From contig CAZWRV010000003.1 of assembly GCA_964636325.1 (NCBI GenBank), forward strand, positions 1,824 to 65,823: a stretch of 64,000 bases of DNA. The letters are read 5' to 3'. The position numbers and the translations under genes were made by a program. Positions 3,001-19,914 of the stretch are shown here, piece after piece. Under the pieces are notes generated by a model that saw only the letters and a list, made by a program, of their open reading frames with translations, did not search any database and was not told the DNA's origin. How positions within the stretch are numbered: position 1 is the stretch's first letter; the number at the start of each line of letters is the position of its first letter. This DNA is from an uncultured Victivallaceae bacterium. GTDB taxonomy: Bacteria > Verrucomicrobiota > Lentisphaeria > Victivallales > GWF2-50-93.

Positions 3001-4041
3001 TACATTAAAGATATTATCACATTGAAATTACCACCTGCGGTTAGGCGCTTTTACAGTGAGCCAGAGGGACAAAGAAGCTATACAACAATACTTAATGTTA
3101 AGGCAAACAAAGACATGAAATATCGCCTCATCATTAGTCGAACCAACGGTTCTAAAGGTAGTGCCGTTTTCGAGTATGGTGAATTTCCTGGACAAAGAGA
3201 TATTGAATATTTGGGGAAGGGGATTGAAGAAGAAGTGAAAGTAATTGGGACCGAGGAAAGCGATTTAGAAGATAATTTATCGATTATTGTAAAGGACGAA
3301 TATTGGAATGATTTACCGAGCAACCAGATTAAAGCTTATAGAATTATTAAGAAGCCTAATGGATCAATTGAAGAAATACCCGTCGGAGCTATCAATTTTA
3401 TTGTTTTCAGTAAAATCATAAATGATTTCGAGTCTAGCGAAACTCAACATAAAGACACAAATGCTTCATGTATAAAATGCGCTAAACAACAGAATAATGA
3501 TCTTCTTCCACCTAAACATGTTCATTATGCAGTTCCTCCTGATTACGATGAAATCACGCCATGTGATCATGGTGAATATAATTTTATCTGTAAACATTGT
3601 AGCTCCAATTGTTTCAGATGTTGTTTGAAAGTTAAATATGGTGGAAATCAAGATGATTACCATGAATTAACAATTGGAGCTAAAACTGTTGAGGATGATC
3701 ATGGATTTGGGCTTTCATCATTTTCATTTAGAGAATATGTTAAAGATAAATGGAAAATCGTCCTAGGAAAAGAAGACGATCCACAATATTCATTTATCTA
3801 CGATAAAATCCCAAAAGATGGCTCTTGTGCAACAAGCATATCGACTCCCTTGAATCATGGTGTTATTACCCACGGGTGCCGCCATAATGATGAAGATGGA
3901 AATATTACAAAAGAAGAAATATTATATTGGGATCCTAAATATGCCGAAAATTGTTGGGCTGAAATGTTGGAAAAGGAAGAGGAAGTGTTACCCCCTAATA
4001 TATATATATTAGAAATATTATATAAAATGCAAAGCCAATGA
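1..4041 (+). CDS. Giant secreted/surface repeat protein, 5-prime partial, with an AT-rich C-terminal module of unknown family
   Basis: Frame 1 is open from base 1 with no stop before the ATG at 40. The upstream residues ..RPYGAGIDMGCDEF resemble the G-x-x-ID-x-G-x-x-E motif that closes parallel beta-helix surface proteins, so the gene starts outside the window. It carries Asp-rich DSDNDG / DFDSD TSP3-like motifs, four ~70-aa InlB B-repeat-like modules and Ig-like stretches (LDTLAPSVTITQP.., TAPALSDV..). From about nt 2370 the sequence becomes AT-rich, N/K/I/Y-rich and Cys-clustered with no family I recognise. Confidence 0.8.
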   Translation: MRGQPRPYGAGIDMGCDEFADSDNDGLADWWELEHFGDLAASDGTGDFDSDTYSDMAEYLAGSNPTKPESKPLYTITFTASAGGVLTCPPSPPCPPAPSIVLTARHGFDAQSVTAAPDDGYQFTGWSGAATGTMNPLKIRNVTSDMSVTANFAVKTYTVNISAGSGGKIEGAAIQVVNHGTDTAAVEAVPDEGYSFIGWSVDYIGTENPLAIPNVTSNMNITANFELKTYTVTYSAGPGGSISGESPQTVNHGADGTPVTAVPDDGYRFIGWSDGSTANPRADENVTADINVTANFEQAYRVEFRALTGGRLIGEAVQLVPPGGSCSPVTAVADAGWHFTRWIVSGDNYSIDNPLTISNVQSDMLLEAAFHADAAGLSVNGGRLYTNSRDIVIDPLTCQLPEIRIGSSPTLLDSVEVQNPLEPFVYTLPDKGDGRYMLYFQYYDSGVSCSDIIGKSVMLDTLAPSVTITQPTNGETTDQGYIDLQARVYDPDPASLGESRPGSALIVRINGKPFYAMDEDIVRDDRFKLNPGENTISVEDEDEAGNISSATVTVTCDPSTDTTAPALSDVNLEGVTVLPANLSKFMLLGGIDDYFSDVRVTVNGGDPITCSVSKDLAGNCQASAVLPLEEGLNSIEVTAFDAARNTDVRSYSVDKSDKYRIEIISPEDGAFANGTATDVTGYVWEPGWGTQDEDPLASVTINGVECVIGSPDTEGKRNFSATVPPAADGAATPLKFTVSTTSGANAPNMSLSHLDGYAITECSRTMLTYNAPHNFIHRSEGPGWSSDWSIRNSIGNSTYEWEPDYSCAKSCYSEVIKTHCKSPHFDDNDWDDGTPTGNPDPNPPSSPSISPIFKVCEEETLQIPCYYYCWGTDYYYEYAASSTFNKTNTTLSLNVPKKYQDAGATNLVLYFSGIEGIPDISMLKFNGQSPIFYDNAAKTAGYFIPAGTKSITVSKGSFNWDELPEYAADSGTIPYYLRYFGSLVSYEFFVEKKKIEFNNYYIKDIITLKLPPAVRRFYSEPEGQRSYTTILNVKANKDMKYRLIISRTNGSKGSAVFEYGEFPGQRDIEYLGKGIEEEVKVIGTEESDLEDNLSIIVKDEYWNDLPSNQIKAYRIIKKPNGSIEEIPVGAINFIVFSKIINDFESSETQHKDTNASCIKCAKQQNNDLLPPKHVHYAVPPDYDEITPCDHGEYNFICKHCSSNCFRCCLKVKYGGNQDDYHELTIGAKTVEDDHGFGLSSFSFREYVKDKWKIVLGKEDDPQYSFIYDKIPKDGSCATSISTPLNHGVITHGCRHNDEDGNITKEEILYWDPKYAENCWAEMLEKEEEVLPPNIYILEILYKMQSQ
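220..1116 (+). repeat. Four tandem ~70-aa coding repeats (InlB B-repeat / Listeria-Bacteroides repeat type) inside the giant protein
   Basis: The units are aa 61-141, 143-213, 216-284 and 287-357. Each follows the pattern Y-T/R-V-x-F/Y..G G.I......V.HG.D...TA.PD.GY.F.GWS....NP....NVTSDM.VTANF. Confidence 0.7.
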
Positions 4042-4106
4042 TTATCTTGTATCTTATGAAGTAATTTATTCTCATTTTTTAAATATATTTATGAAAGGGA
4101 TTGCTT

Positions 4107-4940
4107 ATGGTTACATGGCATTATTTTATCATAATAATTGTTCTATTTTATACATTTAATATTCAATCAGCTAATGAAAATTATTTTGATGAGAAAATCA
4201 TAATAAGCGAAATATGTATTAAAAAAGAAAATAATGAATATCCTAAATGGTTAGTATTAATTTCTAATTTGAATGAAACGATAAATCTTAAGAATTGGTC
4301 ATTAAGCGATTCGCAAAAATGCTTTTATAAATTTACTGAAAATATAAATATTGAGCCCAAGGGAATATTAATGATATGCTTTTATCCTGATGATACTCCT
4401 TCTTCAGATTTTAAAGATAAAATATCAGCTAATGTTAATCAAATAATCGATATATTCAAATGCGAGCCTTTCGATAGCAAAGGAGAATATAATATCTCAC
4501 AGATATTAATAAATAAAACTGTACCTTTATATTTGAGTTTAGGGGAGAAACAATCGATTCATGAATTAGAGCAAACAACAGGGCCAATGTATAAATGGTT
4601 TTATGATGAATCATTAAAATATATTAAAATAAACAATTATCCTGATAATTACAAATATCCTATTATGAGTATTATGTCACAAATTCCAAGAGAATATGAT
4701 GAAGTGGCATTAATTGATGACAAAAACAATCTTATTTCTTACATTAGCTGGGGGAATCAGGCAAATGTGAAGCCATCGCATGAGTTTAAATGGGAAAAAC
4801 AAGTAAAAGATAATTGTAGCTTATATAGAACTTATCCATTAACTATAAATATAAAATCTACAAATGCAATAATTTTAAAAAGGATATCTAAATCAATATT
4901 CGAATTTGAGAAGGATATAAAAAGTTCATTTTTAAAATAG
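4107..4940 (+). CDS. AT-rich hypothetical protein with an N-terminal hydrophobic anchor/signal and a possible lamin-tail-domain (LTD)-like segment
   Basis: ATG at 4107 is preceded by aaaggga; the ORF track starts at TTG 4101. The N-terminus is WHYFIIIIVLFYTF. The segment IISEICIKK..YPKWLVLISNLNETINLKNWSLSDSQKCFYKF..IEPKGILMICF resembles the LTD pattern (I.E...... e.iEL.N....vdLsgW.Lsd....y.f....l.pg....v). Its base composition matches the AT-rich tail of the upstream gene. Confidence 0.55.
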   Translation: MVTWHYFIIIIVLFYTFNIQSANENYFDEKIIISEICIKKENNEYPKWLVLISNLNETINLKNWSLSDSQKCFYKFTENINIEPKGILMICFYPDDTPSSDFKDKISANVNQIIDIFKCEPFDSKGEYNISQILINKTVPLYLSLGEKQSIHELEQTTGPMYKWFYDESLKYIKINNYPDNYKYPIMSIMSQIPREYDEVALIDDKNNLISYISWGNQANVKPSHEFKWEKQVKDNCSLYRTYPLTINIKSTNAIILKRISKSIFEFEKDIKSSFLK

Positions 4941-5214
4941 CAAGCTTGGTAATATCGCTGGGGGGAAGGGACGTTCACACTTAAGTGGCTGAAATAAAAT
5001 GGGATGCGGCGGATATGACGGCGCATGTCCGGGGGGAAGCTTGTACTTTCAGGCCGGTAAATCCACGCATCCCTATATCCACCCTAACTATATCCACCCC
5101 CGGGGCTCGGTAACATCCATAACAACAGATAGTTATGAACATAATATGCCCAGATAATAGCGTTAGAATGAAACAAAGAGGCATCCATTTGACTTTAAGG
5201 ATAGCAATGCTATA

Positions 5215-5919
5215 TTGTCCTCCATGACCACCAGCCGACAATTTCAGGGCGGGCGCAGCTACCATGTGACCCAGCGCTGCCACGGGCGGGCTTTCCTGCT
5301 GGGCAAGGACGTGGATCGGCGCGCCTACCTGAATCTGCTGTGGTCGGGCAAGCAGACGTGGCCGGTGTCGCTGCTGGCGTACAACCTGACCAGCAATCAT
5401 GTGCATCTGCTGGTGTCGGCCGAGGAGCTTGGGGCGCTGAGCGGATTCATGGCCCATGTGTCGGGAGCGATGGGCCGCAACTACAACCGCCGCAAGGAAC
5501 GGGCCGGTGCGTTCTGGGAGGGGCGTTACCGGACGACGCTGATCCAGGACGGCAGCCACCTGTCGCGTTGCCTGTTCTACATCGAGATGAACATGGTGCG
5601 GGCGGGGGTGGTGGATCATCCCCGGGAATGGCCTTGGAGCTCTTACCGGGAGTTGTGCGGGGAACGCCAGCGGTATCGGCTGCTCGACCAGGAACTGCTT
5701 TTGCGCAAGCTAGACTGCGGCCCGGACCGCGGGCTGTTCCGGCAATGGTACCGGGCCACCCTCGACCAGATGAGCGAGCGCCGGGCGGAGCTCCGCCGTG
5801 AGCCATGGTGGGCCGGAGCCAAGGTCGTAGGCGACCGCCAGTTCGTCACCCACCAGGTTGACAAGCGCCGCGCCGAGGATATCGTCGAACTGGAAGATGG
5901 CACCTGCACTTGGGCTTAA
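5215..5919 (+). CDS. HUH/Y1 transposase, IS200-like / REP-associated tyrosine transposase (RAYT)-type
   Basis: The HUH motif is in SNHVHLLVS and the catalytic-Tyr helix motif is in RCLFYIEMNMVRAGVV, followed by WPWSSY. Length is ~230 aa. No tnpB or other IS gene is adjacent. The gene is GC-rich and flanked by AT-rich DNA. Confidence 0.7.
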   Translation: MSSMTTSRQFQGGRSYHVTQRCHGRAFLLGKDVDRRAYLNLLWSGKQTWPVSLLAYNLTSNHVHLLVSAEELGALSGFMAHVSGAMGRNYNRRKERAGAFWEGRYRTTLIQDGSHLSRCLFYIEMNMVRAGVVDHPREWPWSSYRELCGERQRYRLLDQELLLRKLDCGPDRGLFRQWYRATLDQMSERRAELRREPWWAGAKVVGDRQFVTHQVDKRRAEDIVELEDGTCTWA

Positions 5920-6102
5920 AATCGATAAAATGTCCAGTAAATGAATAATGGTTTATAACTAGGTATCATATCCCGGGATGGAGTAATAAAAGTATTCAAA
6001 CTATGGGGTATTCAAACTTGCGGCTCCGCCAGAAAATATCCCGATCCGGCTTGCATTTCCTGCAATCCGCATAAAATTACATTAAATGCTTGGAGCATTG
6101 CC

Positions 6103-9098: not shown

Positions 9099-11069
9099 TT
9101 ATTTGAAGGACGGGACGACGATCCCCTTCAGAATGATGTTCTGGCAGAAGACGAAGACGAGCAAGGTGGGAACGGCGGAAACCACCAGCGACGCCATCAC
9201 CAGATAGTTCGGATAATTCTGCTGGAATTCATACAGGAAGACCATCAGAGTCCACATCTTCGGATCCTGGCAGGTGAGGAACGCGAACATGAAGGCGCTG
9301 TATGCGTGGGTGAACGCGCCGAGCGCGATTATCGCGAGGATGGGCTTTGTCATCGGCACCGCCATCCTGCAGAATATCGTGATTTCCGAGGCACCGTCTA
9401 TGAGGGCCGCCTCGTACATCTCCGAAGGCAGGCTGTCGAAGAAGCCCTTGAGCAGGAATATGCTGTATCCGTTGGCGAGGCCCGGCAGGACCAGCGCCGC
9501 GAAAGTGTTGAGGAGGCCGAGATCCTTAAGCAGCAGGAAGCTCGGTATCATTCCAACCGAATGGGGGAAGGCCATGGTCGCGAGCAGGAATAGCATTATC
9601 TTGTTGGTGTAGCTCAGCTTGTAGCGGGAGAGGGCATAGGCCGCGAGCGGATTCACCGTAAGTGCGCAGGCGATCGCCAGCACGACGAATACGATCGTGT
9701 TGAAGAGCGCCCTTCCGTGGACTGCGATCACATTGAACACCATCATGTAGTTGCCGGTCAGGTACTTCCAGAATATGGCCGACCTGCTGGCGCGGAACGT
9801 ATGGATGTCTATCCAGGGGGAGGGGAGCCTGATGTCGGCGGCGTCCCTGAAATCGGAGCCGTACCTCGCGTTGATGGCATCGAGCCCTCCGTATTTGCCG
9901 ATCAGGAAAGACTGGTACATAAGGGCAGGATCCTCGAAGCTTATCTTTTCGGCCGGGACTTTCTTCTCCATGAACTCGATCCATTCGTTGGCCTGCCCCG
10001 TGTAGTCCGTGTCCATCGGGCATGTCGGCGAGAACTTTATCGCGAGCTTCGCATCCCTGGTCTCCTTGGAGAAGTTGCGGTATTTTTCTTCAATGAAATC
10101 CTTGAAGGCCGGCTCCATCGAGGGATCGAGCTTAAGGAATATCACCGGGCACTTCTTCTTGATGAACTCCTCGCGGATGCCGTCGGCAAGAAGCTTTCTT
10201 GAGAATGCGCTGAAGAGGCTGATCTCCGAATGCCTGCGGATTCCGAGCCCTGTGGCCTTCCTTAGATCATCCATCATCGGGAACTTCTCCACGAGGAACT
10301 TCTGGAACGCCATCTCCGCGCTGACCACCCTTACCTTGCCGGCGGGCAGCGTCCTCTTGAACTCGGCCCAGTCGGCATATTTGCTGTCGAGCGGAAGCAC
10401 CCACCTCTGCCGCAGGGGATCCTCATAGGGCGGTGAAACCTGGCTGAACTCGTCCGCGTTCTCGACATATGCCCTGTTCAGCTCCTGGATGGTTCCGTAC
10501 TTCTTCTTCAGCCATTCCCTGTATTCGGGCTTCAGGTCGAGCACCGTGTACGTGCCTGATCCGGCGTCAGTGAAATAGGTGAACTTGTAGAGGTTCGGGC
10601 ACAGTTTGAGGAATTCGTCCCAGTCGGATGCGATCGCTCCGACCTTGGAAGGATCCTTCTCGAAATAGACGCTCAGCGGGTCTTCGAGCCGGGTGACCTT
10701 CCTGATATAGCACGTCTTGCCGGTCCTGTTCGTCCTCTCCACGTCGATTTCGCTCTTTTCCTGGTCGATGACTTCGGCTTCGACCTTGATGTCTATCGGA
10801 TGATACCAAGGATGGCCGTATTCGTAGCCGAGGAAGTTCGTCTTGCACTTGTCGACGATGTATTTCTTGAACAGCATCTTCTCGCTGAAAAGGTATCTAG
10901 GGACAAGCGTGAACTCGTGGTAGTCGGCATATGAGCATATCGAGCTTGAGACCATGAGTGCGAAAGGATAGACCATGGTTACTCCGCCGAGGCAGAGGAC
11001 CACGTAGAAGACGCCTATCAGCGCCGCCGACCTCAGGCTTTTCCTTCCTACGCTAGAAACGAGCGGCAT
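9099..11069 (-). CDS. Carbohydrate-type ABC transporter permease (MalG-like) with a ~400-aa extracytoplasmic insertion after TM1
   Basis: The C-terminal region carries the EAA loop SLPSEMYEAALIDGASEITIFCRMAVPMTKP within five TM segments. The N-terminal TM is LIGVFYVVLCLGGVTMVYPFALMV, followed by a long soluble region. At 656 aa it is about twice the usual permease length. Confidence 0.75.
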   Translation of the reverse strand: MPLVSSVGRKSLRSAALIGVFYVVLCLGGVTMVYPFALMVSSSICSYADYHEFTLVPRYLFSEKMLFKKYIVDKCKTNFLGYEYGHPWYHPIDIKVEAEVIDQEKSEIDVERTNRTGKTCYIRKVTRLEDPLSVYFEKDPSKVGAIASDWDEFLKLCPNLYKFTYFTDAGSGTYTVLDLKPEYREWLKKKYGTIQELNRAYVENADEFSQVSPPYEDPLRQRWVLPLDSKYADWAEFKRTLPAGKVRVVSAEMAFQKFLVEKFPMMDDLRKATGLGIRRHSEISLFSAFSRKLLADGIREEFIKKKCPVIFLKLDPSMEPAFKDFIEEKYRNFSKETRDAKLAIKFSPTCPMDTDYTGQANEWIEFMEKKVPAEKISFEDPALMYQSFLIGKYGGLDAINARYGSDFRDAADIRLPSPWIDIHTFRASRSAIFWKYLTGNYMMVFNVIAVHGRALFNTIVFVVLAIACALTVNPLAAYALSRYKLSYTNKIMLFLLATMAFPHSVGMIPSFLLLKDLGLLNTFAALVLPGLANGYSIFLLKGFFDSLPSEMYEAALIDGASEITIFCRMAVPMTKPILAIIALGAFTHAYSAFMFAFLTCQDPKMWTLMVFLYEFQQNYPNYLVMASLVVSAVPTLLVFVFCQNIILKGIVVPSFK

Positions 11070-11087
11070 GCTTTCCTCCTTGTTCCG

Positions 11088-13835
11088 TCAGGCGTTGTCG
11101 GCCCTTCCGGCCCTTTTGAACTCCACTTTTCCAAGGACCTGGAGCTGGAGCACGGTGAAACCGATCAGCATCGCCCCGAGTATCCAAGCCTCTGCGGTGG
11201 CGAAACCGAAGTTCAGGTAGAGGAACGAGTGGTACCAGATGTCGAGCCCTACCGTCATGGTCTTGTTCACGGGCCCGCCTCCTGTCATCACGAATATGTT
11301 CTCCGAGGCCTGGAACGCCCCGACGAAGGCGCCGAGGAAGTTGATCAGTATCAGCGCCTTGAGGTTCGGCACAAGTATGTGCCAGAACTTGTGGAGGAAT
11401 CCGGCGCCGTCGAGGTCCGCTGCCTCGTACTGGTCCTCCGGAATGCACTTCATGGCGGCGAGATATATCAGGCATCCGGGCCCAGCATGGGCCCATATGC
11501 CGGGGATTATGATGCAGACCATCGCAAGCCCAGGATCCTCCAGGAAATTCTGCGGCGAAATGCCGAAGAGGCCGAGTATCCAGTTCACGGCTCCGTCGGG
11601 CGTAGGATCAAAGAGCAGCTGCTTCCACAGGAACATCGTCACAAGTCCGGTGGTCACGGCGGGCAGGTAATATATGATCCTGAAGAGAACCCCGCCTCTA
11701 GGGATCTCCGTCAGCATTATCGCCAGTATGATCGGAACCAGGAAGCCCATTATGATGGAGAGGAACACATAATAGAAAGTCTGGAAGAGGAACTGCCAGA
11801 AGTTCTTCTCAAGCACCACCTCGATGAAGTTCTGCGTGCCGACGAAGGGGCCTCCTCCGAGTATCTTGAAGTCCTGGAACGCCATCAGCGAGCCCCTGAA
11901 CAGCGGGTAGTACTGCCAGACTGCTATCGAAAGGAACGCAATGGAGAGGAACGACCAGGCATAGATCGTCCTCCTCCGGCGTGTAAGCCCCGGTATGTAG
12001 AAGTCGACCGCCTTCTTCTGGCCTTTCATCTTTGAGCGGAGCATGTATGTGAACGCCAGGACAACGAGAAGGGCGGCAAGGGCTATTGCCCAGTACGAAT
12101 GCGCCTTGTACTTCCTCATCGTCTCCTCGGGGCGCTTGCCGAGGATGGTGGCGTTGACCTCGCGGCAGGTCTTCGCCATGAGGCCCTCCGCCGGCTCCTC
12201 CGGATAAAGTATAGCCATGTCCATCGGATGGCCAAGGCTAACGGTCATGACGTGCGTGAAGCCCCGGCAGTAGGGCTCCACCTCCGTGTTCTTGGCGACG
12301 GACTCGTTGATCTGGATCCATTCCCCGGGAAGATCGTTGTAGTAGTCGATATAGCCATATTTCTTGAGGAGGAACGGGCGGACATACTGGGCCATACCGT
12401 TTTCAACCATTGCCTTGACGCGCATCTGGATCGCCTCCTCGCTCGTCATGAACTTGATATACTGCCACGCGGCCTCCTGGCGTTCAGGCGGGGAAGTCCT
12501 GTTGACCGACAGGTACCATCCGGCGATGAAGCTCTTCACATCATGGCCTTTCCTGGGAGGGAAGGCTGTGAGGCTCCACAGCGTGAGATCGATGTTGGTG
12601 AGGGCGCCCATCGTGGTGATGCCCATGGCGGTCTCGTACCGTTCACCGCGCGTATTCCCGGTCGAACTCCTCGCGATGCCGTTGTAGATTCTGTTCTTCA
12701 CTCCCTCGGAGGAGAGGTCGTATTTCTCGCCGCAGACCGGACATACCGCCATAGAGGACTTCTTCATCTCCGGGGTGATGTCGAATTCGCGCTTCTCATG
12801 CTGCTTGAGGCACCTGAGCCACGGCTGAGTCGCAAGCTTCCTGTAGTATTCTAGCGCGGCGACACCGTTCTCATCGTCGCAGACGAGACGCCACTTGAGT
12901 TCCCTGACGCCTGAAAGATCCGCCCCGCATGCCTTGCACGCCTCCTTCGTTCCACCGGCATACGCCTGCTCATATTCCTTAAGGTTGATCGGGGTTATGC
13001 CGCAGGACATATAGTCGAAGTACGGCGGCTTGACCTCGGCCAGCGCCTTGCAGGAAGGGCATTCCTTGTAGCACTTGACGACATCGCCGCCGGCCGCCCA
13101 GATGAACTGGAGGAAATGCCAGCCCTGGAACATGCCCCTCAGAAGATTGAAGCCGTATGTCGGCAGCTGGTCTGTCACAGTGCCGGGCTCCTTCGACGGC
13201 ACGAAGGTCAGCTTCTTGCCCATCTCCCACATCTCGTCCCAGTCGCGCGGAGGCTTCGACGGATCAAGACCCGCCTTTATGAAAAGATCCTTCCGGTAGG
13301 TCAGGGACATGAAATAGTAGCTCTGCGGAACTGCATATATGCTGCCATCCTTTATGCAGAGTTCCCATACCTTGTCTGGCGCCTCGACCCCGTAATAGTC
13401 CTTCCCCTGATCCTTGAAATCCCTTCTGAAACGGTCGTTCAGGGGTGCAAGGAACCCCTGGTCTATGTAGTCGCCAACCTTGCGGCCGTAGAGGTCGAAG
13501 ACGTCGGGCGCCATCCCGCCGGCGACCGCCAGGAACTGATTGCCCTCCGCCCCGGCGCCCTGAATCTTGAGAGGAACTAGAGTCTTCACATCGATATGAG
13601 GGTGCTTCTTCAGAAAAAGATCGAAGACTTCCCGGTTCGCCTTCTGTTCGACATCCATGCTTCCCTTGGGCGGGATGTTCCAGAGGAGAAGGGTCAGCCG
13701 CTTAGACCCTTCGGATGCCGCCGCCGCATTATTGTCATCGGCCATCAGCTGCTGGCATGGGACATAGACGGTCGCCATGGCAGATGCAATAATGAAAAAC
13801 AAAAGGTTGCGGGTTGCCATCGGAGAACTCCCCAA
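11088..13835 (-). CDS. Fusion of an extracellular solute-binding protein (family 1-like) and an ABC permease (MalF-like)
   Basis: The N-terminal ~560 aa has a signal/anchor and SBP-like sequence (LTLLLWNIPPKG.., QFLAVAGGMAPDVFDLYG, SIYAVPQSYYFMSLTYRKDLF). The C-terminal ~340 aa has six TM segments and the EAA loop IPEDQYEAADLDGAGFLHKFWHILVPNLK. A Cys-rich insert (CYKECPSC, CKAC, CPVC) lies at aa 255-368. Confidence 0.75.
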   Translation of the reverse strand: MGSSPMATRNLLFFIIASAMATVYVPCQQLMADDNNAAAASEGSKRLTLLLWNIPPKGSMDVEQKANREVFDLFLKKHPHIDVKTLVPLKIQGAGAEGNQFLAVAGGMAPDVFDLYGRKVGDYIDQGFLAPLNDRFRRDFKDQGKDYYGVEAPDKVWELCIKDGSIYAVPQSYYFMSLTYRKDLFIKAGLDPSKPPRDWDEMWEMGKKLTFVPSKEPGTVTDQLPTYGFNLLRGMFQGWHFLQFIWAAGGDVVKCYKECPSCKALAEVKPPYFDYMSCGITPINLKEYEQAYAGGTKEACKACGADLSGVRELKWRLVCDDENGVAALEYYRKLATQPWLRCLKQHEKREFDITPEMKKSSMAVCPVCGEKYDLSSEGVKNRIYNGIARSSTGNTRGERYETAMGITTMGALTNIDLTLWSLTAFPPRKGHDVKSFIAGWYLSVNRTSPPERQEAAWQYIKFMTSEEAIQMRVKAMVENGMAQYVRPFLLKKYGYIDYYNDLPGEWIQINESVAKNTEVEPYCRGFTHVMTVSLGHPMDMAILYPEEPAEGLMAKTCREVNATILGKRPEETMRKYKAHSYWAIALAALLVVLAFTYMLRSKMKGQKKAVDFYIPGLTRRRRTIYAWSFLSIAFLSIAVWQYYPLFRGSLMAFQDFKILGGGPFVGTQNFIEVVLEKNFWQFLFQTFYYVFLSIIMGFLVPIILAIMLTEIPRGGVLFRIIYYLPAVTTGLVTMFLWKQLLFDPTPDGAVNWILGLFGISPQNFLEDPGLAMVCIIIPGIWAHAGPGCLIYLAAMKCIPEDQYEAADLDGAGFLHKFWHILVPNLKALILINFLGAFVGAFQASENIFVMTGGGPVNKTMTVGLDIWYHSFLYLNFGFATAEAWILGAMLIGFTVLQLQVLGKVEFKRAGRADNA

Positions 13836-13838
13836 TCT

Positions 13839-14891
13839 CTAGTTTTCCGGAGTTGCTCGTATATCGTCGAAATCGACCGTTCCTGTCGAATGGTAGATGC
13901 CGGGCTGCAGCCTTATTCCCGCGGCGCCTTCCGGCACCTCTCGGACCGCGGACATTTCCTTCCAGTCCTGATCGGCCTTGGCGAACGGGACTTCTCCGTA
14001 TCCGCCGACCTTCTGCCCTTTTGAGTCCGTGAAGATCAACATAACTCTGGCGTCATGATAGACTTCCGAACCGCACTTCAGATCCTTCGTCCGCATTTTA
14101 GCAGATATCCTGACTTTCTTCCATGAAGGGTCCAGTGCAAAAAAGTTTTCGGCGAAGACGTCCTTTTCCGGACTGCCGTTCCTGACACGCAGGAAGCGCA
14201 TGCCGTCCTCATCCTTGAGGGCGATCTCGGGATTGTCCTTCGTCTGCTGATCGTAGCTGACAATCCAGTTGGGCGGAGAGTTCGTCCTGAGCGTCCGGCG
14301 GTGGTCGAATCCGCCGGCGAGATCGAGCGCGGCTAGGGGGATGCACTTGTCGTTCGTCGCGAAGAGCCTCACGTCGGAGATGTCGAATTCCCCCACCGCT
14401 GCGGACATGTCGAATACCAGCTCGGCCGTCTTTGAATCGGGAGGGACCGGCATCGTCTCCCAGCGTTCGAACCATTTACCGCCGGTGCTGTCAGCCAGAT
14501 GGCAGAACGGCCTGTATTGGGCCTCACCGGCAGAATTGAAAAATACAAGCATGGCCCGGGGAACGTCGCCGGGCTTCGCGGCAGTCTTCTCGTCCAGTTT
14601 GTTCACTCTCATCCTGAAGCCAAGCGTCAAGCTCTCCCATTCCGGCTTGAGATCGAAGATCTGCTTGATGCTGGCATATCCGCCGGGCGCCGTATTCGAT
14701 ATCCTGGCAAAGGCGGCATCCGCTTCCTTTTCTATGGATACGCCCTTTCCGTATCTCCAGTCGGACGCCTTCCCGTCCTCTCCGACCTGCGAGAAGCCGC
14801 CGTTCCTGACCAGGTTTTCCGCCGCTCCTGAGGAGAGCGCCGCGAGCGCGAATGCCGCAGCGGCAATCATCATGATGGAAACCGCCTTCAT
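13839..14891 (-). CDS. Secreted protein with two tandem jelly-roll carbohydrate-binding-module-like domains
   Basis: It has a signal peptide MKAVSIMMIAAAAFALAALSSGAAE. It starts ENLVRNGGFS...W as in the CBM4_9/CBM22-type N-G-x-F-E motif. Each half ends in a G.(F/V)D(I/F).D(V/I)R motif (GEFDISDVRLF, GTVDFDDIRAT). Confidence 0.6.
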   Translation of the reverse strand: MKAVSIMMIAAAAFALAALSSGAAENLVRNGGFSQVGEDGKASDWRYGKGVSIEKEADAAFARISNTAPGGYASIKQIFDLKPEWESLTLGFRMRVNKLDEKTAAKPGDVPRAMLVFFNSAGEAQYRPFCHLADSTGGKWFERWETMPVPPDSKTAELVFDMSAAVGEFDISDVRLFATNDKCIPLAALDLAGGFDHRRTLRTNSPPNWIVSYDQQTKDNPEIALKDEDGMRFLRVRNGSPEKDVFAENFFALDPSWKKVRISAKMRTKDLKCGSEVYHDARVMLIFTDSKGQKVGGYGEVPFAKADQDWKEMSAVREVPEGAAGIRLQPGIYHSTGTVDFDDIRATPEN

Positions 14892-15277: not shown

Positions 15278-18058
15278 TCAAAGCCAGCCGAAGAGCCTGA
15301 TCCAGAAACTCTTTTCCTCCACCTTCTTTTCTAAGGGGACCGTATCTTGGATAGGCGCCTTTTCCCCGGATCCCTTTCCGGCAATGGCCGAGGCAAGTTT
15401 GGCGGCAGGCATTCCTTTTCCCTCCATGAACACGGCGTATCCGCCGAGCTTGACCGGAGCTTGTAAGTCGTTCCCGAAAAGATCCCTGGCCTTTACTTCC
15501 GTTCCGCCGATGTCGAGTTCGAAGGATACGGCCGACTTTGGAATCAATACGGCCGCGGAACCCGCGCCGTCTTCGAAAAGATATGCGAAGAGGCCTTGCG
15601 TGACTTCGCAGGTCTCCACGTATCTTTTTCCCTCGAGATGCCAGGCCAGATTCGATATCCCGGCCATGTTCGGCGACAGCCTGCCGTCGACGTTCAGTGG
15701 CGAATAGGTGTTTCCAAACTCCCCCCAGCCATGGTTCGTGTAGAGGAAGAACTTGTCCGCTCCGCTCGCAAGCGTCGACACCCAGTAGCGAACCATGTAG
15801 TCGGCCCAGAACGCGCTCTTGTCCTCCTTCCCCAGCGGCGGGAAGCGACGGTAGAAGTTCCTGACGTCGGAAGGTCCTGGCCCGCCTTCAGTGTTCCATA
15901 CTTGCATTACGGGATCCTCCGGATTGGAGTTCTCCTTGGTCGCCTTGTAGATGGCGTCTCCGGGATATCCTATTCCGGATGCAAGATAAGAGTGGTAGCT
16001 GACGGCGTCGACAGTCTTGAACGCCCCCTCAGCGAAAAGTTTTCTGGTCCAGGCGTCAGCAGGGGCATGATAGTGGGCGCCTGCGTTGAGGAGGATAATG
16101 GCGTCCGGATCGCCGGTCCTCGCTCCATCGGCGGCGGCCTTGTGGATCCTGAGGAATTCCTCAGGCGCCGGATGGACGTATTTGCCGTTCTCGAAGCCGG
16201 CGTTGAGGAAGCCCGGGAGAAACGGTTCGTTCCATGTCTCCCACGCCTCGACTTTATCCTTGTATCTCTCGGCCATGCGTCTGCAGTATTCGCTCCATTC
16301 GCCCAGATCCTTCGGAGGAACACTCTTCGCGTGCCAGTTGTTGTAGCCCTTGGGCGGAGGCTCAGGCATCTTCCAGCTCCGCGCCCATTCCGGAATCCCG
16401 GCGAATATTCCTAGTACGCAGAGGCCGGATTCCCGCAAGTTGCGGACGATCCCGTCCATCCCCTCGAAGCTCCACTGGCCCTTCTCCTTCTCGACCGACT
16501 GCCAGTCCATTCCGAACTGGCGCGCCCATGTGAAGCCCAGCTTGCGCATGACCTTCGGCATCTCGCTGTTCGGGACAAGATGTATGCCGAACGGTGAATC
16601 CGGCCTCAGCTGCCCTGCGAACTTCGCAGGCCTGACGCGGTGCAGCAGTGTCTCGCCTGTCTTTGAGGCTTCCTTCCCTTCCTTGTCCACGACCCTGTAT
16701 TCGAGCCGGTAGCTGCCGAGCGGAGGCTGTCCCGCCTCCGGAAGCTCCACGTCCATGCTCTGGAAGCTCCCCGCCTTGAGCGCGAGATCGGGCATAGGAT
16801 GCGCCTTTCCGTAGACATCGCAGATTTCGCTCCTCAAGAGCATTCCGTCCGTGATTTCACCGTAGACTGCCGCCTTCAGCCTGAAAGGTTGACCCGCCTC
16901 ATAAAGCCCGTATGGTTCGAGAGGCTGGACTGCTGCCTCAACCCTGCCGCATCTTTTGAAGTCTGTTACGTTTTCAGATGCTTCGACCTGGACGCCGTCG
17001 ACCCAGAATCTGCCCTTCGGCCCCCAGTTCATGATCTGGGCCAGATAGAACCCCGAAGAAGAATAGGGAAGCTTCAGCGTGAAGCTGAACCTTTTCCATT
17101 CCTTCCCTAACGCTATGGTCTTCTGGTATGGTTCTACCCAGAGTTTCTCGTCGGGAGGGCCGAACCTCATGTTCAGGAAGTGGCCTGAGTTTTCCGCCTT
17201 CGCCCAGAAGCTGAAAGTGTAGTGCCTGTCCCCCAGCCCGACGAACGGACAGGTGATGGCGGCGACACCGTGCTTCCCGTATGGCGCGGTTGTCATCCTG
17301 AAGGACGCTACCCCGGTCGGTCCGGTCTCAACGGGGTCGCTGGCATAGTTTTCCGGACTGTAGCTTTCATGGAAGGGGGTCCAGGGCGCCGGGAGCCAGT
17401 TCGGAAATGAACTGTTGGTGAGGAGGTTGCCCTCCAATCTCACGCCCTCGGCAACTTCCGCCGGCGAAAGATACTCGATCGAGACCTCGTCGACTTCAAG
17501 GACGCTTGGCGTCCGGACTTCGAACATCAGGCAGGCGTATGGATCGTCCGCCACCGGAGAAACCAACAGTTCATGCTTCACCCATTCTGGTATCGCTGTC
17601 ACCTCGCGGCTGCCGTAGTAGTTGTAGGGGGAGTCCACTCTGCGTATGCCCGTCTTGACAGGGACGCTGTCGGGGCTCCTGAGGGCGAACTTGACCTTCG
17701 CGAACCAGTCCTTGCTCATCTTCACCCGCGGAAGCCGGAAGAGGACAGCACCGTTCCTGATCTCCTTGACAGTCACCCTCAGCGCACCTTTGCCCTGGAA
17801 GGGGTTGTCAAGGACCTTCGCATATTCCACGTCGACGTCGGCCCACGCCGAATCGTCCTCGCAGCGGGGCGGCATCTCCCCGGTTATTTTCGACTTCTCC
17901 GACTTTACTTCCAGACGCTTGAACCCGCCTTCGAAGTCGCAGGCGATTGGAGCAGGGCGGACCTTTTCCTTTCCTGCGGAGCTTTCATCAGCCGCGGAAA
18001 CAGCCATGCTCGCAAGGAGCGCCGAGGCCCCCAATATCCACATCACAATCTTTTTCAT
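15278..18058 (-). CDS. Secreted multidomain glycoside hydrolase (clan GH-A TIM barrel) with N-terminal CBM-like domains
   Basis: It has a signal peptide MKKIVMWILGASALLASMAVSAA. Two CBM-like modules end in VLEVDEVSIEY and RFWVDGVQVEA. The acid/base-type motif VEAWETWNEPF is typical of clan GH-A (GH5/30/39/79-like). The family cannot be assigned by eye. Confidence 0.7.
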   Translation of the reverse strand: MKKIVMWILGASALLASMAVSAADESSAGKEKVRPAPIACDFEGGFKRLEVKSEKSKITGEMPPRCEDDSAWADVDVEYAKVLDNPFQGKGALRVTVKEIRNGAVLFRLPRVKMSKDWFAKVKFALRSPDSVPVKTGIRRVDSPYNYYGSREVTAIPEWVKHELLVSPVADDPYACLMFEVRTPSVLEVDEVSIEYLSPAEVAEGVRLEGNLLTNSSFPNWLPAPWTPFHESYSPENYASDPVETGPTGVASFRMTTAPYGKHGVAAITCPFVGLGDRHYTFSFWAKAENSGHFLNMRFGPPDEKLWVEPYQKTIALGKEWKRFSFTLKLPYSSSGFYLAQIMNWGPKGRFWVDGVQVEASENVTDFKRCGRVEAAVQPLEPYGLYEAGQPFRLKAAVYGEITDGMLLRSEICDVYGKAHPMPDLALKAGSFQSMDVELPEAGQPPLGSYRLEYRVVDKEGKEASKTGETLLHRVRPAKFAGQLRPDSPFGIHLVPNSEMPKVMRKLGFTWARQFGMDWQSVEKEKGQWSFEGMDGIVRNLRESGLCVLGIFAGIPEWARSWKMPEPPPKGYNNWHAKSVPPKDLGEWSEYCRRMAERYKDKVEAWETWNEPFLPGFLNAGFENGKYVHPAPEEFLRIHKAAADGARTGDPDAIILLNAGAHYHAPADAWTRKLFAEGAFKTVDAVSYHSYLASGIGYPGDAIYKATKENSNPEDPVMQVWNTEGGPGPSDVRNFYRRFPPLGKEDKSAFWADYMVRYWVSTLASGADKFFLYTNHGWGEFGNTYSPLNVDGRLSPNMAGISNLAWHLEGKRYVETCEVTQGLFAYLFEDGAGSAAVLIPKSAVSFELDIGGTEVKARDLFGNDLQAPVKLGGYAVFMEGKGMPAAKLASAIAGKGSGEKAPIQDTVPLEKKVEEKSFWIRLFGWL

Positions 18059-18085: not shown

Positions 18086-18904
18086 TCAGAAGTCGTCCGG
18101 CCTGTAGCTTTTATATGCCTCTCGGAACGGAAGGGCGTCTCCATGCCCGTCCCAGAACAAGTAGTTAGCGACCGATCCGTGCCTCATCACCGCCGAATAA
18201 AAGAGCTTGCTGTTGATCATCGGAAACTGTCCGTCCATCGCGTTCGGATGGTAGAAGACCTGCGAACTTCCCCGGCATTCGCCGAAGAACACCCGCTTGT
18301 CCGGCTTCTTGATGTCGCTGACTCGCGCAAGCTCGACTTCTGAGGGGGTGTCGGAGTGCATCGTCCGGAAATTGGAGTCGTAGCCGCCGTTTAGGGCGCG
18401 GGACTTCGGAGGCGAAAAGGGCTCGGTGTTTATGCCGTAGGCGATCGTCCACCAGTTCCAGGCGCCGCTGTCCGCCTCAGGGGACGGATATGACATGCAG
18501 CCCCAGAAGGGATAGCCGGAATTCTTCATGCAATACTTGTCCTTTATTTCGTTCATCCATGGAAGCCCGTCCGAGTTCGCCAGGCCAGCTGCGCCCGGGG
18601 CGATGTATTGCATCAGGAATGACGGCCAAAGCACCTGTTGGTCGCAAGAAGGGACGAATGTCTTGTTCCGGGGGGGAGTCACATATTCGTTGTAGTCGGA
18701 TGCATATAGGAATTCGGTCGTCCCTATCTGCTTGAGCGTGTTCGCGCACTGTATCTTCTTGCCCGTGTCCCTGGCCCGCTTAAGGGCCGGCAGCAGCATC
18801 GCGGACAGTATCGCGATGATCGCGATCACCACTAGAAGTTCAATAATGGTGAATTGTCTCCCCCTTTTGGCCGGTGGGCATGGCCCTCTGATTCTGCGCT
18901 TCAT
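18086..18904 (-). CDS. Prepilin-type N-terminal cleavage/methylation domain protein with a C-terminal H-X9-DG motif (DUF1559-like)
   Basis: The N-terminus is [28 protein letters not shown]. The C-terminus is [16 protein letters not shown], which is H, nine residues, then DG. It overlaps the LacI stop by 4 nt. Confidence 0.85.
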
Positions 18905-19914
18905 GACAATGTCCCTCCCTCGATCTTAGTGAACTTGACCGTTGCGCTGGGCACGTCGCGTCCCTCCTTGGAGAGCCTCAGCATGAGCAGCTTCGCAGCC
19001 TCCTCTCCGAGCGAGAGCGACGAATATTTGTATCCGCTGAAAACCGTGCCGGAATCGCAGCTCTCGTCCCTGGTTGTGAACGCGATTATTCCTATGTCCT
19101 GCGGAACCCTCCTTCCACATTCGAGCGCCAGCGCATGGCACCGCCTCGCCTCATGGAAGGAGGGCGCGACAAACGCCAGCCTGCGCCTTGCGCCGCGCAT
19201 GATCCTGATTGTCTTGGCGGTCCATTCCCCGGGCGGAATCCTTATGTCGGTCTGCACAGATAAATGCCTGCGTCCGGATCCCCGGCTCCATTCCGCGAAA
19301 GAGCGCCATATCCCGTCGGCATAATGGTGATACTTGGCCTCGGTCGGACCGAGATAAACGAGGCTCTCGTATCCCCGCTCCAACGCCTCGTTGAACGCTC
19401 CGGGGAGAACCGAGCGGAAGTCCTGACGCACGCAGTTCACGCTGCCGTCACCCATGATCCAGACCGACGGAACCGGAGGAGAATCAAGGAACTGAGGCAT
19501 GCCTGACGCCCTTATTATGCCTGCATGCATGATAAGGCCGTCGACCATGCTTTCCATGAAAAGGCGGGGGACCGACCACGATTCGAACTTCTCCCTCTCG
19601 TAAGGCACTTCGGCAAAGACCAGGTTCATCCCCTCCCTGTTCAGTATCCGCGAAATTCCAACCACGGAAGCCATCTCAAGGTCGGCGGGACCCGTCGCCA
19701 GACCGACGCTTCCGAACCTTCCGCTACGGATGGCACGGGCATGGCTGTTCGGGCGGTAATTATGCTTCTTCGCCAGCTCCATGATCCGCTTCTTGGTATC
19801 GGAGCTGATGTCGGGATGGCCGTGAAGGGCGCGGTGTATGGTCATCACCGAAACACCCGCCATCCTGGCGATGTCCGACATCCTGCTCGCGCCGCTCCTG
19901 ACTTCGCTTTTCAA
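18901..19914 (-). CDS. LacI-family transcriptional regulator
   Basis: The HTH is [55 protein letters not shown], followed by a periplasmic-binding-fold sugar domain. The true start may be the internal MSDIARM, about 19881. Confidence 0.85.

What the first reader, a model, noticed from the sequence alone, without database searches (positions are those of the whole stretch)
9099..13835. Atypical ABC importer: binding protein fused to permease, second permease with a ~400-aa loop, and no ATPase gene
The 915-aa protein joins a family-1-like solute-binding domain to a MalF-like permease in one chain. The partner MalG-like permease (656 aa) carries a ~400-aa extracytoplasmic insertion after TM1. 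No nucleotide-binding subunit is encoded anywhere in the 10.8-kb operon, so it presumably uses a shared MsmK-type ATPase. SBP-TMD fusions are known for some amino-acid and osmolyte ABC systems, but they are uncommon for carbohydrate (CUT1-like) systems. Combined with a giant permease loop, this suggests a tethered glycan-capture machine.
Basis: partly seen in the sequence, partly recalled or inferred. Interest (0 to 1): 0.55.

Follow-up and report, generated by a model that had tools for sequence, protein, structure and literature searches.

The report
Sugar ABC importer with tethered binding protein
Two adjacent genes encode a sugar-type ABC importer whose binding protein is permanently fused to one membrane subunit, while the other subunit carries a new four-repeat periplasmic domain; the pair is inherited together in several bacterial phyla and I found no description of it in the literature.

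Summary
Gene A (11088-13820, minus strand, 910 aa from the ATG) has a signal or anchor peptide, a complete family-1 sugar-binding protein, one extra transmembrane helix and a six-helix MalF/UgpA-type permease. Gene B (9099-11069, 656 aa) is a MalG/UgpE-type permease with a 420-aa periplasmic insert after TM1. No ABC ATPase is encoded in the 64-kb window.

The fusion is not an artefact. At least 127 homologue clusters in Lentisphaeria, Planctomycetota, Verrucomicrobiota, Armatimonadota and Cloacimonadota share it. Two independent assemblies carry the identical ORF.

Two results are new:
- The B insert consists of four homologous ~60-aa helical repeats. It is predicted with high confidence, matches no PDB structure as a whole, and shares only a 30-aa helix hairpin with GH42-type enzymes.
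- The B-type permease is almost always next to a fused A. This held in 51 of 55 informative metagenomic loci, and none had an unfused partner.

The missing ATPase is ordinary for CUT1 systems. Five related loci carry a MalK-type ATPase nearby, and both permeases keep their EAA coupling motifs.

The "glycan capture by the loop" idea has no support. A docking scaffold for the tethered binding domain is more likely but unproven. This is a new variant of a known kind.

The parts
11088..13820 (-).
   Evidence: ORF list, Pfam and NCBIfam, ribosome-binding site, 100% match to P0001
13740..13820 (-). A aa 1-27: N-terminal signal peptide or membrane anchor
   Evidence: Hydrophobic segment at aa 5-23. 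The model shows a helix at aa 2-25 with low pLDDT. Cleavage was not tested.
12141..13712 (-). A aa 37-560: complete family-1 (CUT1-type) substrate-binding domain, periplasmic
   Evidence: The profile matches PDB trehalose/maltose-binding protein 1eu8 at 6e-30. Foldseek aligns whole oligosaccharide-binding proteins at target TM-score 0.70-0.78, E 1e-15.
12687..13079 (-). A aa 248-378: clade-specific insertion in the binding domain, with two cysteine clusters (C254/C257/C295/C298 and C337/C360/C363)
   Evidence: Alignment A2, cysteine column counts, pLDDT above 90
12039..12095 (-). A aa 576-594: extra transmembrane helix (TM0) that tethers the binding domain to the permease. The following 23-aa linker has 9 Lys/Arg, so it is cytoplasmic.
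   Evidence: Hydropathy and positive-inside count. The model shows one long helix at aa 565-603.
11091..11981 (-). A aa 614-910: six-helix MalF/UgpA/AlgM1-type permease core, with the EAA coupling motif at aa 799 (window 11343-11426)
   Evidence: PDB profile hits to AlgM1 at 2.4e-36, SugA and MalF; NCBIfam UgpA at 1.9e-24; EAA motif
9099..11069 (-). Gene B: MalG/UgpE-type permease with a giant periplasmic P1 loop (656 aa)
   Evidence: Ribosome-binding site AGGAGG.
9714..10970 (-). B aa 34-452: periplasmic domain between TM1 and TM2, mostly helical
   Evidence: AlphaFold2 pLDDT 94.3, pTM 0.90. No PDB structure matches at E below 0.5. The domain is confined to this permease family.
9825..10673 (-). 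Four tandem homologous ~60-aa repeats within the loop (B aa 133-213, 223-283, 291-351, 352-415). Consensus: DWxxFxxxxP...YRxFLxxKYGsixxLNxAYGtxxxSF.
   Evidence: Pairwise hhalign of the repeat profiles gives probability 98-99%, E 1e-14 to 1e-21. Repeat alignment A3. The hairpin half matches GH42, GH14 and GH50 structures.
9102..9713 (-). B aa 453-656: MalG-type permease core (TM2-TM6), with the EAA motif at aa 553 (window 9330-9413)
   Evidence: Pfam BPD_transp_1 at 7.7e-14, NCBIfam UgpE/MalG, EAA motif
13839..14891 (-). Operon neighbour: secreted 350-aa protein with no family match. By eye it has a signal peptide and a repeated carbohydrate-binding-module-like segment.
   Evidence: Translation. 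No Pfam, NCBIfam or PDB hit. The CBM-like reading is my inference.
15278..18058 (-). Operon neighbour: 926-aa putative clan GH-A glycoside hydrolase with a CBM4_9-like region
   Evidence: Weak Pfam hits to GH39, GH10 and GH42. PDB PslG at 5e-6.
18086..18904 (-). Operon neighbour: prepilin-type N-methylation / DUF1559 (pseudopilin-like) protein
   Evidence: Weak Pfam hits to N_methyl and SBP_bac_10; NCBIfam pilin-type N-termini. The same neighbour occurs in L003 and L005.
18901..19914 (-). Operon neighbour: LacI-family regulator
   Evidence: Pfam LacI at 8e-15 and Peripla_BP_3

Best explanation
The two genes encode the membrane part of a type I, CUT1-class (sugar or oligosaccharide) ABC importer with a non-canonical build.

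Protein A is exported N-terminus first, so its binding domain lies in the periplasm. One extra transmembrane helix (TM0) then returns the chain to the cytoplasm, where a normal six-helix MalF/UgpA-type permease begins. Protein B is the MalG-type partner. Its first periplasmic loop has grown into a 420-aa domain of four homologous helical repeats. A and B would form a heterodimer carrying exactly one tethered binding domain.

Both subunits keep the EAA coupling helix. The complex should therefore be powered by a MalK/MsmK-type ATPase dimer encoded elsewhere in the genome.

In this Lentisphaeria-like genome the pair closes a LacI-headed run of same-strand genes (an inferred operon). That run also holds a clan GH-A glycosidase, a secreted CBM-like protein and a pseudopilin-like DUF1559 protein. 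The likely cargo is therefore an oligosaccharide released by that glycosidase.

The repeat domain of B is inherited almost only together with a fused A. My inference is that it acts as a docking platform or scaffold for the tethered binding domain, a role comparable to the MalF P2 loop in the maltose system.

Shown: domain identities, topology logic, conservation of the fusion, co-occurrence of A and B, repeat structure, absence of an ATPase in the window.
Inferred: heterodimer formation, ATPase supplied in trans, substrate class, docking role of the loop.
For: Domain identity:
- Pfam and NCBIfam assign both proteins.
- The family profile hits solved CUT1 binding proteins, and the AlgM1, SugA and MalF permeases.
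- The A model has pLDDT 88.5 and pTM 0.85. Its binding domain superposes on whole oligosaccharide-binding proteins at target TM-score 0.70-0.78.

Topology:
- TM0 lies at aa 576-594, followed by a linker with 9 Lys/Arg in 23 aa. B has a Lys/Arg-rich N-terminus before TM1.
- EAA motifs are present at A aa 799 and B aa 553.

The fusion is real:
- At least 127 homologue clusters of 780-1090 aa share the architecture, across Lentisphaeria, Phycisphaerae, Armatimonadota and Cloacimonadota.
- Two independent assemblies from different sequencing runs carry the identical ORF.
- Fused genes also occur in Verrucomicrobiota, Planctomycetota and Fimbriimonadaceae genomes. Actinomycetes have separate genes for the binding protein, the MalF-type permease and the MalG-type permease, in the same order.

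Co-inheritance:
- Of 80 B-type metagenomic loci, 55 were informative. 51 had a fused A adjacent, 4 had no adjacent A, and none had an unfused partner.
- The same pairing appears in L003 and L005-L007.

The loop:
- AlphaFold2 gives pLDDT 94.3.
- It contains four homologous repeats.
- The domain is found almost only in permeases of 600-680 aa, at the same position.

ATPase in trans:
- MalK-type genes (ABC_tran + OB_MalK + TOBE_2) lie near the cassette in L003, L015, L089, L115 and L150.
- Most canonical CUT1 loci fetched here also lack a nearby ATPase.
Against: - No ATPase partner was identified for this genome, because only 64 kb is available.
- No heterodimer model could be made, so the A-B contact and the loop-to-binding-domain contact are untested.
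- The substrate is unknown. The glycosidase assignment rests on weak hits.
- Four B-type loci and three A-type loci (L004, L011, and possibly L009, where the contig ends) lack the partner next door. Adjacency is therefore not absolute.
Confidence: 0.72

Rival explanations
1. The B loop is itself a glycan-binding or glycan-processing module. It would catch or trim polysaccharide chains and pass them to the tethered binding domain.
For: The loop gives a Pfam Glyco_hydro_42 hit above the family cut-off (28.7 bits against 21). The operon encodes glycan-degrading and CBM-like proteins.
Against: The GH42 match covers only 58 of 376 profile positions. It is a helix hairpin that also occurs in GH14, GH50 and GH167 enzymes, outside their catalytic residues. 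In B this hairpin is simply the C-terminal half of each of the four repeats. No carbohydrate-binding module or enzyme fold was found by Foldseek; all E-values were above 0.5 and TM-scores at or below 0.12. The residues conserved in the repeats look structural: Trp/Phe, Pro, Tyr-Gly and Asn of the hairpin.
Confidence: 0.15
2. The fused ORF is an assembly or frameshift artefact, or a decaying pseudogene, and the real system has a separate binding protein and permease.
For: Canonical CUT1 loci have the same gene order with separate ORFs, so losing one stop codon could in principle create a fusion.
Against: The identical ORF occurs in two independent assemblies. More than 120 homologue clusters from at least five phyla keep the same fusion, including the extra TM0 helix that topology requires. 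A simple read-through of adjacent genes would lack TM0 and would leave the binding domain on the wrong side of the membrane.
Confidence: 0.01
3. The pair is not a nutrient importer. Instead it senses a glycan, with the tethered binding domain and the loop signalling occupancy to a regulator. Alternatively, it works without ATP.
For: No ATPase is encoded in the window. In L006 the cassette sits among housekeeping genes with no glycosidase nearby.
Against: Both permeases keep canonical EAA coupling motifs and complete type I permease cores. MalK-type ATPases lie directly beside the cassette in L015 and L115. A LacI-plus-glycosidase context is typical of catabolic uptake operons.
Confidence: 0.07

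Closest known systems
Canonical CUT1 ABC importers (MalEFGK2 of E. coli; LpqY-SugABC; AlgM1M2SS-AlgQ2; UgpBAEC)
   Same: A family-1 binding protein, two different permeases of MalF/UgpA and MalG/UgpE type with EAA motifs, the same gene order (binding protein, then the MalF-type permease, then the MalG-type permease), and a MalK-type ATPase that is often encoded elsewhere.
   Different: Here the binding protein is covalently joined to the first permease through an extra transmembrane helix. The second permease carries a 420-aa four-repeat periplasmic domain between TM1 and TM2.
ABC importers with fused substrate-binding domains: OpuA, OpuF and GlnPQ (PMC7673798, PMC8025302)
   Same: The binding domain is tethered to the translocator by a transmembrane anchor helix. 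This gives a high local concentration and a fixed stoichiometry.
   Different: From the cited papers and my own knowledge, those systems are homodimers with two or four binding domains of cluster F type, and they carry osmolytes or amino acids. This system would be a heterodimer with a single, much larger sugar-type (family-1) domain, fused at the N-terminus of only one subunit. Its partner subunit has its own large periplasmic domain.
MalF P2 loop of the E. coli maltose transporter
   Same: A large periplasmic insertion in a CUT1 permease. In MalFGK2 it holds the binding protein on the transporter (established knowledge of the maltose system; review PMC6906923 came up but I did not read it). 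This is the functional analogy I propose.
   Different: From my own knowledge, the P2 loop lies in MalF between TM3 and TM4, is about 180 aa and is Ig-like. The loop here lies in the MalG-type subunit between TM1 and TM2, is 420 aa, and is built of four helical repeats. No sequence or fold similarity was found.
GH42 / GH14 / GH50 glycoside hydrolases (helix hairpin of the TIM barrel)
   Same: A ~30-aa motif, (F/Y)RxWLxxKYGsxxxLNxAWG, is shared at E 5e-7 to 1e-2. Foldseek gives local matches of 35-55 columns.
   Different: Only the hairpin is shared. There is no TIM barrel and no catalytic region, and the hairpin is repeated four times within a longer repeat unit.

Membership tests
CUT1 family of type I ABC importers (TC 3.A.1.1) | Family-1 (MalE/UgpB-like) two-lobed substrate-binding protein | tested here: met
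   Pfam SBP_bac_1 at 5.6e-24. The profile matches PDB 1eu8 at 6e-30 over aa 54-386. Foldseek aligns whole binding proteins at target TM-score 0.70-0.78.
CUT1 family of type I ABC importers (TC 3.A.1.1) | Two different permease subunits (MalF/UgpA-like and MalG/UgpE-like), each with an EAA coupling motif | tested here: met
   NCBIfam UgpA at 1.9e-24 for A and UgpE at 1e-20 for B. PDB hits to AlgM1, SugA and MalF. EAA motifs at A aa 799 and B aa 553.
CUT1 family of type I ABC importers (TC 3.A.1.1) | MalK/MsmK-type ATPase with a C-terminal regulatory (TOBE) domain | tested here: inconclusive
   None in the 64-kb window. MalK-type genes lie within 10 kb of homologous cassettes in L003, L015, L089, L115 and L150. 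The rest of this genome is not available.
CUT1 family of type I ABC importers (TC 3.A.1.1) | Transports sugars or oligosaccharides | not testable with these tools
   There is only context: a LacI regulator, a putative clan GH-A glycosidase and a CBM-like protein in the operon. GH42, GH35 and GH2 genes occur in L003.
SBD-fused ABC importers of the OpuA / GlnPQ kind | Binding domain covalently linked to the transmembrane domain through a membrane anchor helix | tested here: met
   One ORF, with TM0 at aa 576-594 between the binding domain and the permease. The arrangement is conserved in the homologues.
SBD-fused ABC importers of the OpuA / GlnPQ kind | Homodimeric translocator carrying two or four cluster-F binding domains | tested here: not met
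   There are two different permease genes, and only A carries a binding domain, which is of family-1 sugar type. The defining features are taken from PMC7673798 and PMC8025302.
GH42 beta-galactosidases (for the B loop) | Complete catalytic TIM barrel of the Glyco_hydro_42 profile | tested here: not met
   Only profile positions 152-209 of 376 match. Foldseek TM-scores are at or below 0.12. The matching piece is a repeated hairpin.
MalF P2-loop type docking domain | Insertion in the MalF-type subunit between TM3 and TM4, with an Ig-like fold | tested here: not met
   The insertion is in the MalG-type subunit between TM1 and TM2 and is helical. A has no comparable loop. The definition of the P2 loop is from my own knowledge.

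The most novel reading that the evidence does not exclude
The fused A and the repeat-bearing B together define an undescribed subfamily of sugar ABC importers in diderm phyla (Planctomycetota-Verrucomicrobiota-Chlamydiota group, Armatimonadota, Cloacimonadota). In it, a new four-repeat periplasmic domain on the MalG-type subunit co-evolved with a single tethered binding domain. That domain would hold, orient or gate the binding domain. The result would be a self-contained one-binding-site importer suited to cells with large or unusual periplasms. A second, unrelated fused family whose MalG-type partner also has a long loop (L036) hints that tethering and loop expansion are mechanistically linked.
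Probability: 0.35. Interest if true: 0.65.

Novelty: new variant of a known kind. Interest (0 to 1): 0.52.

Why it matters
How a binding protein docks, hands over its substrate and leaves is a central question for ABC importers. It has been studied mainly with free binding proteins (the maltose system) or with homodimers carrying two to four tethered domains (OpuA, GlnPQ).

A natural heterodimeric sugar importer with exactly one tethered binding domain would be a clean system for structural and single-molecule work. A dedicated partner domain that is always inherited with it adds to that value. The system would also widen the known range of SBD-fused importers to carbohydrates and to diderm bacteria.

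For annotation, the pair gives a simple rule. A permease of about 620-680 aa with this repeat domain predicts a fused binding-protein/permease gene next door. The GH42 Pfam hit on such permeases should not be read as a glycosidase.

Tried and rejected
- **Frameshift or assembly artefact:** rejected on conservation and on independent assemblies.
- **ATPase hidden in the window:** motif scans and phmmer with a related MalK found nothing.
- **B loop as a GH42-like enzyme or a known fold:** Pfam at E up to 10 gives only GH42 and GH14 fragments. Foldseek against the PDB gives nothing below E 0.5.
- **Literature:** seven full-text searches for a description of a sugar-type fusion of a binding protein to a permease, or of the operon context, found nothing relevant. 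The 2002 review on fused binding domains was not held. A 2013 survey of ABC uptake porters does not mention such fusions in CUT1.
- **Organism name:** the cluster look-up gave no accession or name. The Lentisphaeria assignment rests on the closest named homologue, P0004, at 74% identity.
- **350-aa neighbour:** no family or PDB match.
- **Second fused family:** I tested whether the long loop of its MalG-type partner in L036 and L078 is related to the B loop. It does not match the loop profile.
Full report
**1. The observation**

The two ORFs are where the finding places them, on the minus strand.

The 915-aa reading of gene A starts at a TTG. The ATG at 13820 has a GGGGAG ribosome-binding site 8 nt upstream and gives a 910-aa product identical to database protein P0001. 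Gene B starts 18 nt after A's stop codon, behind an AGGAGG site.

Pfam finds SBP_bac_1 (E 5.6e-24), SBP_bac_8 and BPD_transp_1 in A. In B it finds BPD_transp_1 plus a short Glyco_hydro_42 fragment. NCBIfam places A's C-terminal part with UgpA, GlcT and MalF, and B's with UgpE and MalG.

Hydropathy shows a 420-aa gap between TM1 (aa 15-33) and the next helix (aa 454) of B. It also shows an isolated helix at aa 576-594 of A, between the binding domain and the permease.

No ABC signature or Walker A motif occurs in any of the six frames of the 64-kb window. A MalK-type ATPase taken from a related locus finds no relative among the window's ORFs.

**2. The N-terminal part of A is a real binding-protein fold**

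A profile of 68 homologues hits solved sugar-binding proteins. The best is trehalose/maltose-binding protein 1eu8 at 6e-30, spanning both lobes. With its C-terminal part the same profile hits the AlgM1, SugA and MalF permeases.

The AlphaFold2 model of the whole chain has pLDDT 88.5 and pTM 0.85. Foldseek superposes whole oligosaccharide-binding proteins on it (5ci5, MalE3 6dtr, 5f7v) at target TM-score 0.70-0.78 and E about 1e-15.

The model shows one long helix at aa 565-603, followed by six permease helices. The 23-aa linker after TM0 holds 9 Lys/Arg, so it is cytoplasmic. This puts the binding domain outside and the permease in its normal N-in orientation.

**3. The fusion is not an artefact**

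- Two assemblies from different sequencing runs carry the identical ORF.
- A protein search found at least 127 clusters with the same architecture, 780-1090 aa long. Source names include Lentisphaeria, Phycisphaerae, Armatimonadetes and Cloacimonadota.
- A scan of species-representative genomes found fused genes in Fimbriimonadaceae, Chthonomonas, Verrucomicrobiota (Terrimicrobiaceae, Opitutia), Tepidisphaeraceae and Planctomycetaceae.
- In the same scan, actinomycetes and others showed the canonical arrangement: three separate genes in the same order, binding protein, then the MalF-type permease, then the MalG-type permease.
- TM0 is present throughout the alignment. A simple read-through of adjacent genes would not supply it.

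**4. The B loop**

AlphaFold2 predicts aa 34-452 with pLDDT 94.3 and pTM 0.90, as a mostly helical domain. Its secondary structure repeats.

I cut the homologue alignment into units and compared them profile against profile. This shows four homologous repeats of about 60 aa, with hhalign probability 98-99% and E 1e-14 to 1e-21. There is also a partial hairpin at the start. The repeat consensus is DWxxFxxxxP...YRxFLxxKYGsixxLNxAYGtxxxSF.

Only the C-terminal 30 aa of the repeat, a helix hairpin, matches solved proteins. The same element occurs in GH42, GH14, GH50 and GH167 enzymes at E 5e-7 to 1e-2. This explains the Pfam GH42 hit, which covers 58 of 376 profile positions.

As a whole the domain matches nothing in the PDB by Foldseek; the best E-value is 0.58 and TM-scores are at or below 0.12. 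More sensitive libraries were unavailable.

A search of 1.84 billion representative proteins with the loop alone found 195 clusters at E up to 1e-3. Nearly all are 600-680 aa with the domain at the same position. At this sensitivity the domain belongs to this permease family.

**5. A and B are a unit**

Context look-ups for distant homologues show the fused gene directly followed by the long-loop permease. This holds in L003, L005, L006 and L007.

I then fetched 80 metagenomic loci through the B alignment and classified their ORFs with HMMs built here:

| Outcome | Loci |
|---|---|
| Informative | 55 |
| Fused A adjacent | 51 (48 upstream, 3 downstream) |
| No adjacent A | 4 |
| Unfused binding protein plus permease as neighbour | 0 |

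Ten further loci have the permease part of an upstream gene cut off by the contig end.

Conversely, A-type genes in L004 and L011 lack an adjacent B. L009 also shows none, but there the contig ends just after A.

A second, distant fused family appears in L036, L063 and L078. In L036 its MalG-type partner also has a long loop after TM1, about 330 aa, but this loop does not match the B-loop profile.

**6. The ATPase**

Both permeases keep EAA coupling motifs, so an ATPase partner is expected.

MalK-type genes (ABC_tran + OB_MalK + TOBE_2) lie near the cassette in five loci:
- L003, about 9 kb downstream;
- L015, directly upstream;
- L115, directly downstream of B;
- L089 and L150, about 5-6 kb downstream.

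Most canonical CUT1 loci in the same data set also have no ATPase within 10 kb. From established knowledge, shared ATPases such as MsiK, MsmK and MsmX are common for this family. The missing ATPase is therefore ordinary.

**7. Context and likely cargo**

The genes run on one strand in this order: LacI regulator, prepilin/DUF1559 protein, 926-aa putative clan GH-A glycosidase, a small ORF, a secreted 350-aa protein, A, then B. The glycosidase gives weak GH39, GH10 and GH42 hits and matches PslG at 5e-6. A convergent MFS gene ends the run.

A LacI gene, a DUF1559 gene and a glycosidase gene recur next to the cassette in L003 and L005. In L006 the cassette stands among housekeeping genes.

An oligosaccharide released by the glycosidase is the likely cargo. 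This is an inference.

**8. Mechanism**

The best-supported reading is a heterodimeric CUT1 importer with one tethered binding domain and an ATPase supplied in trans. The strict co-inheritance of the B repeat domain with the fusion suggests that the domain docks or scaffolds the tethered binding domain, by analogy with the MalF P2 loop.

I could not test this.

**9. Comparison with what is known**

The papers I could read describe fused binding domains for OpuA, OpuF and GlnPQ. These are homodimers with cluster-F domains that carry osmolytes or amino acids (PMC7673798, PMC8025302).

Seven full-text searches found no description of a sugar-type fusion of this kind, of the repeat domain, or of this operon context. 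A 2013 survey of ABC uptake porters lists only 6-8-helix CUT1 permeases and mentions no such fusion.

Public annotation calls these proteins "extracellular solute-binding protein" or "ABC transporter permease". The library does not cover subscription journals or TCDB, so an earlier mention cannot be excluded.

**10. Verdict**

This is a real, conserved and apparently undescribed architectural variant of a well-known transporter class. Interest is moderate.

Noticed in passing
window 12687-13079 (minus strand; A aa 248-378): The binding domain carries a clade-specific insertion of about 130 aa with two cysteine clusters. C254/C257/C295/C298 (CPSC...CKAC) occurs only in the five closest relatives. 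C337/C360/C363, with His341 nearby, is present or absent as a block: Cys-Cys-Cys in about 18-20 of 36 insert-bearing homologues, and Asn-Asp-Thr together in the rest. It looks like a zinc-knuckle-type site in a periplasmic domain.
   Followed up: partly
window 18086-18904 (minus strand); L003 5804-6685; L005 16203-17066: A prepilin-type N-methylation / DUF1559 protein (Pfam name SBP_bac_10) recurs beside the LacI gene and the transporter cassette in Lentisphaeria-type loci. Its function is unknown. It may be a membrane-anchored glycan-binding or pseudopilus component linked to uptake.
   Followed up: partly
L036 3-4668; L063 8909-11461; L078 9881-14085: A second, distantly related family also fuses a binding protein to a MalF-type permease (Planctomycetaceae, Latescibacterota and an unclassified MAG). 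In L036 the MalG-type partner again has a loop of about 330 aa after TM1, but this loop does not match the B-loop profile.
   Followed up: partly
alignment A2 columns about 1180-1270 (for example P0013, P0018, P0022): Many Phycisphaerae-type homologues of A carry an extra hydrophobic insertion of about 70 aa inside the permease. It probably adds two transmembrane helices. The window's protein lacks it.
   Followed up: no
window 13839-14891 (minus strand): A 350-aa secreted protein with no Pfam, NCBIfam or PDB match. By eye it has a signal peptide and two similar halves that resemble carbohydrate-binding modules (it begins ENLVRNGGF).
   Followed up: partly
window 2001-6000: GC content drops to about 0.41, against about 0.58 elsewhere. 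The region covers the end of a 1333-aa protein with InlB B-repeat/Flg_new domains, a lamin-tail-domain protein and an IS200-like (Y1_Tnp) transposase at 5215-5919. It may be an acquired island.
   Followed up: partly
L154 6124-12940; L143 220-6586: Some metagenomic loci carry one B-type permease followed by two tandem fused A genes (L154). Others carry the order B, A, B (L143). This suggests paralogue expansion with exchangeable partners.
   Followed up: no
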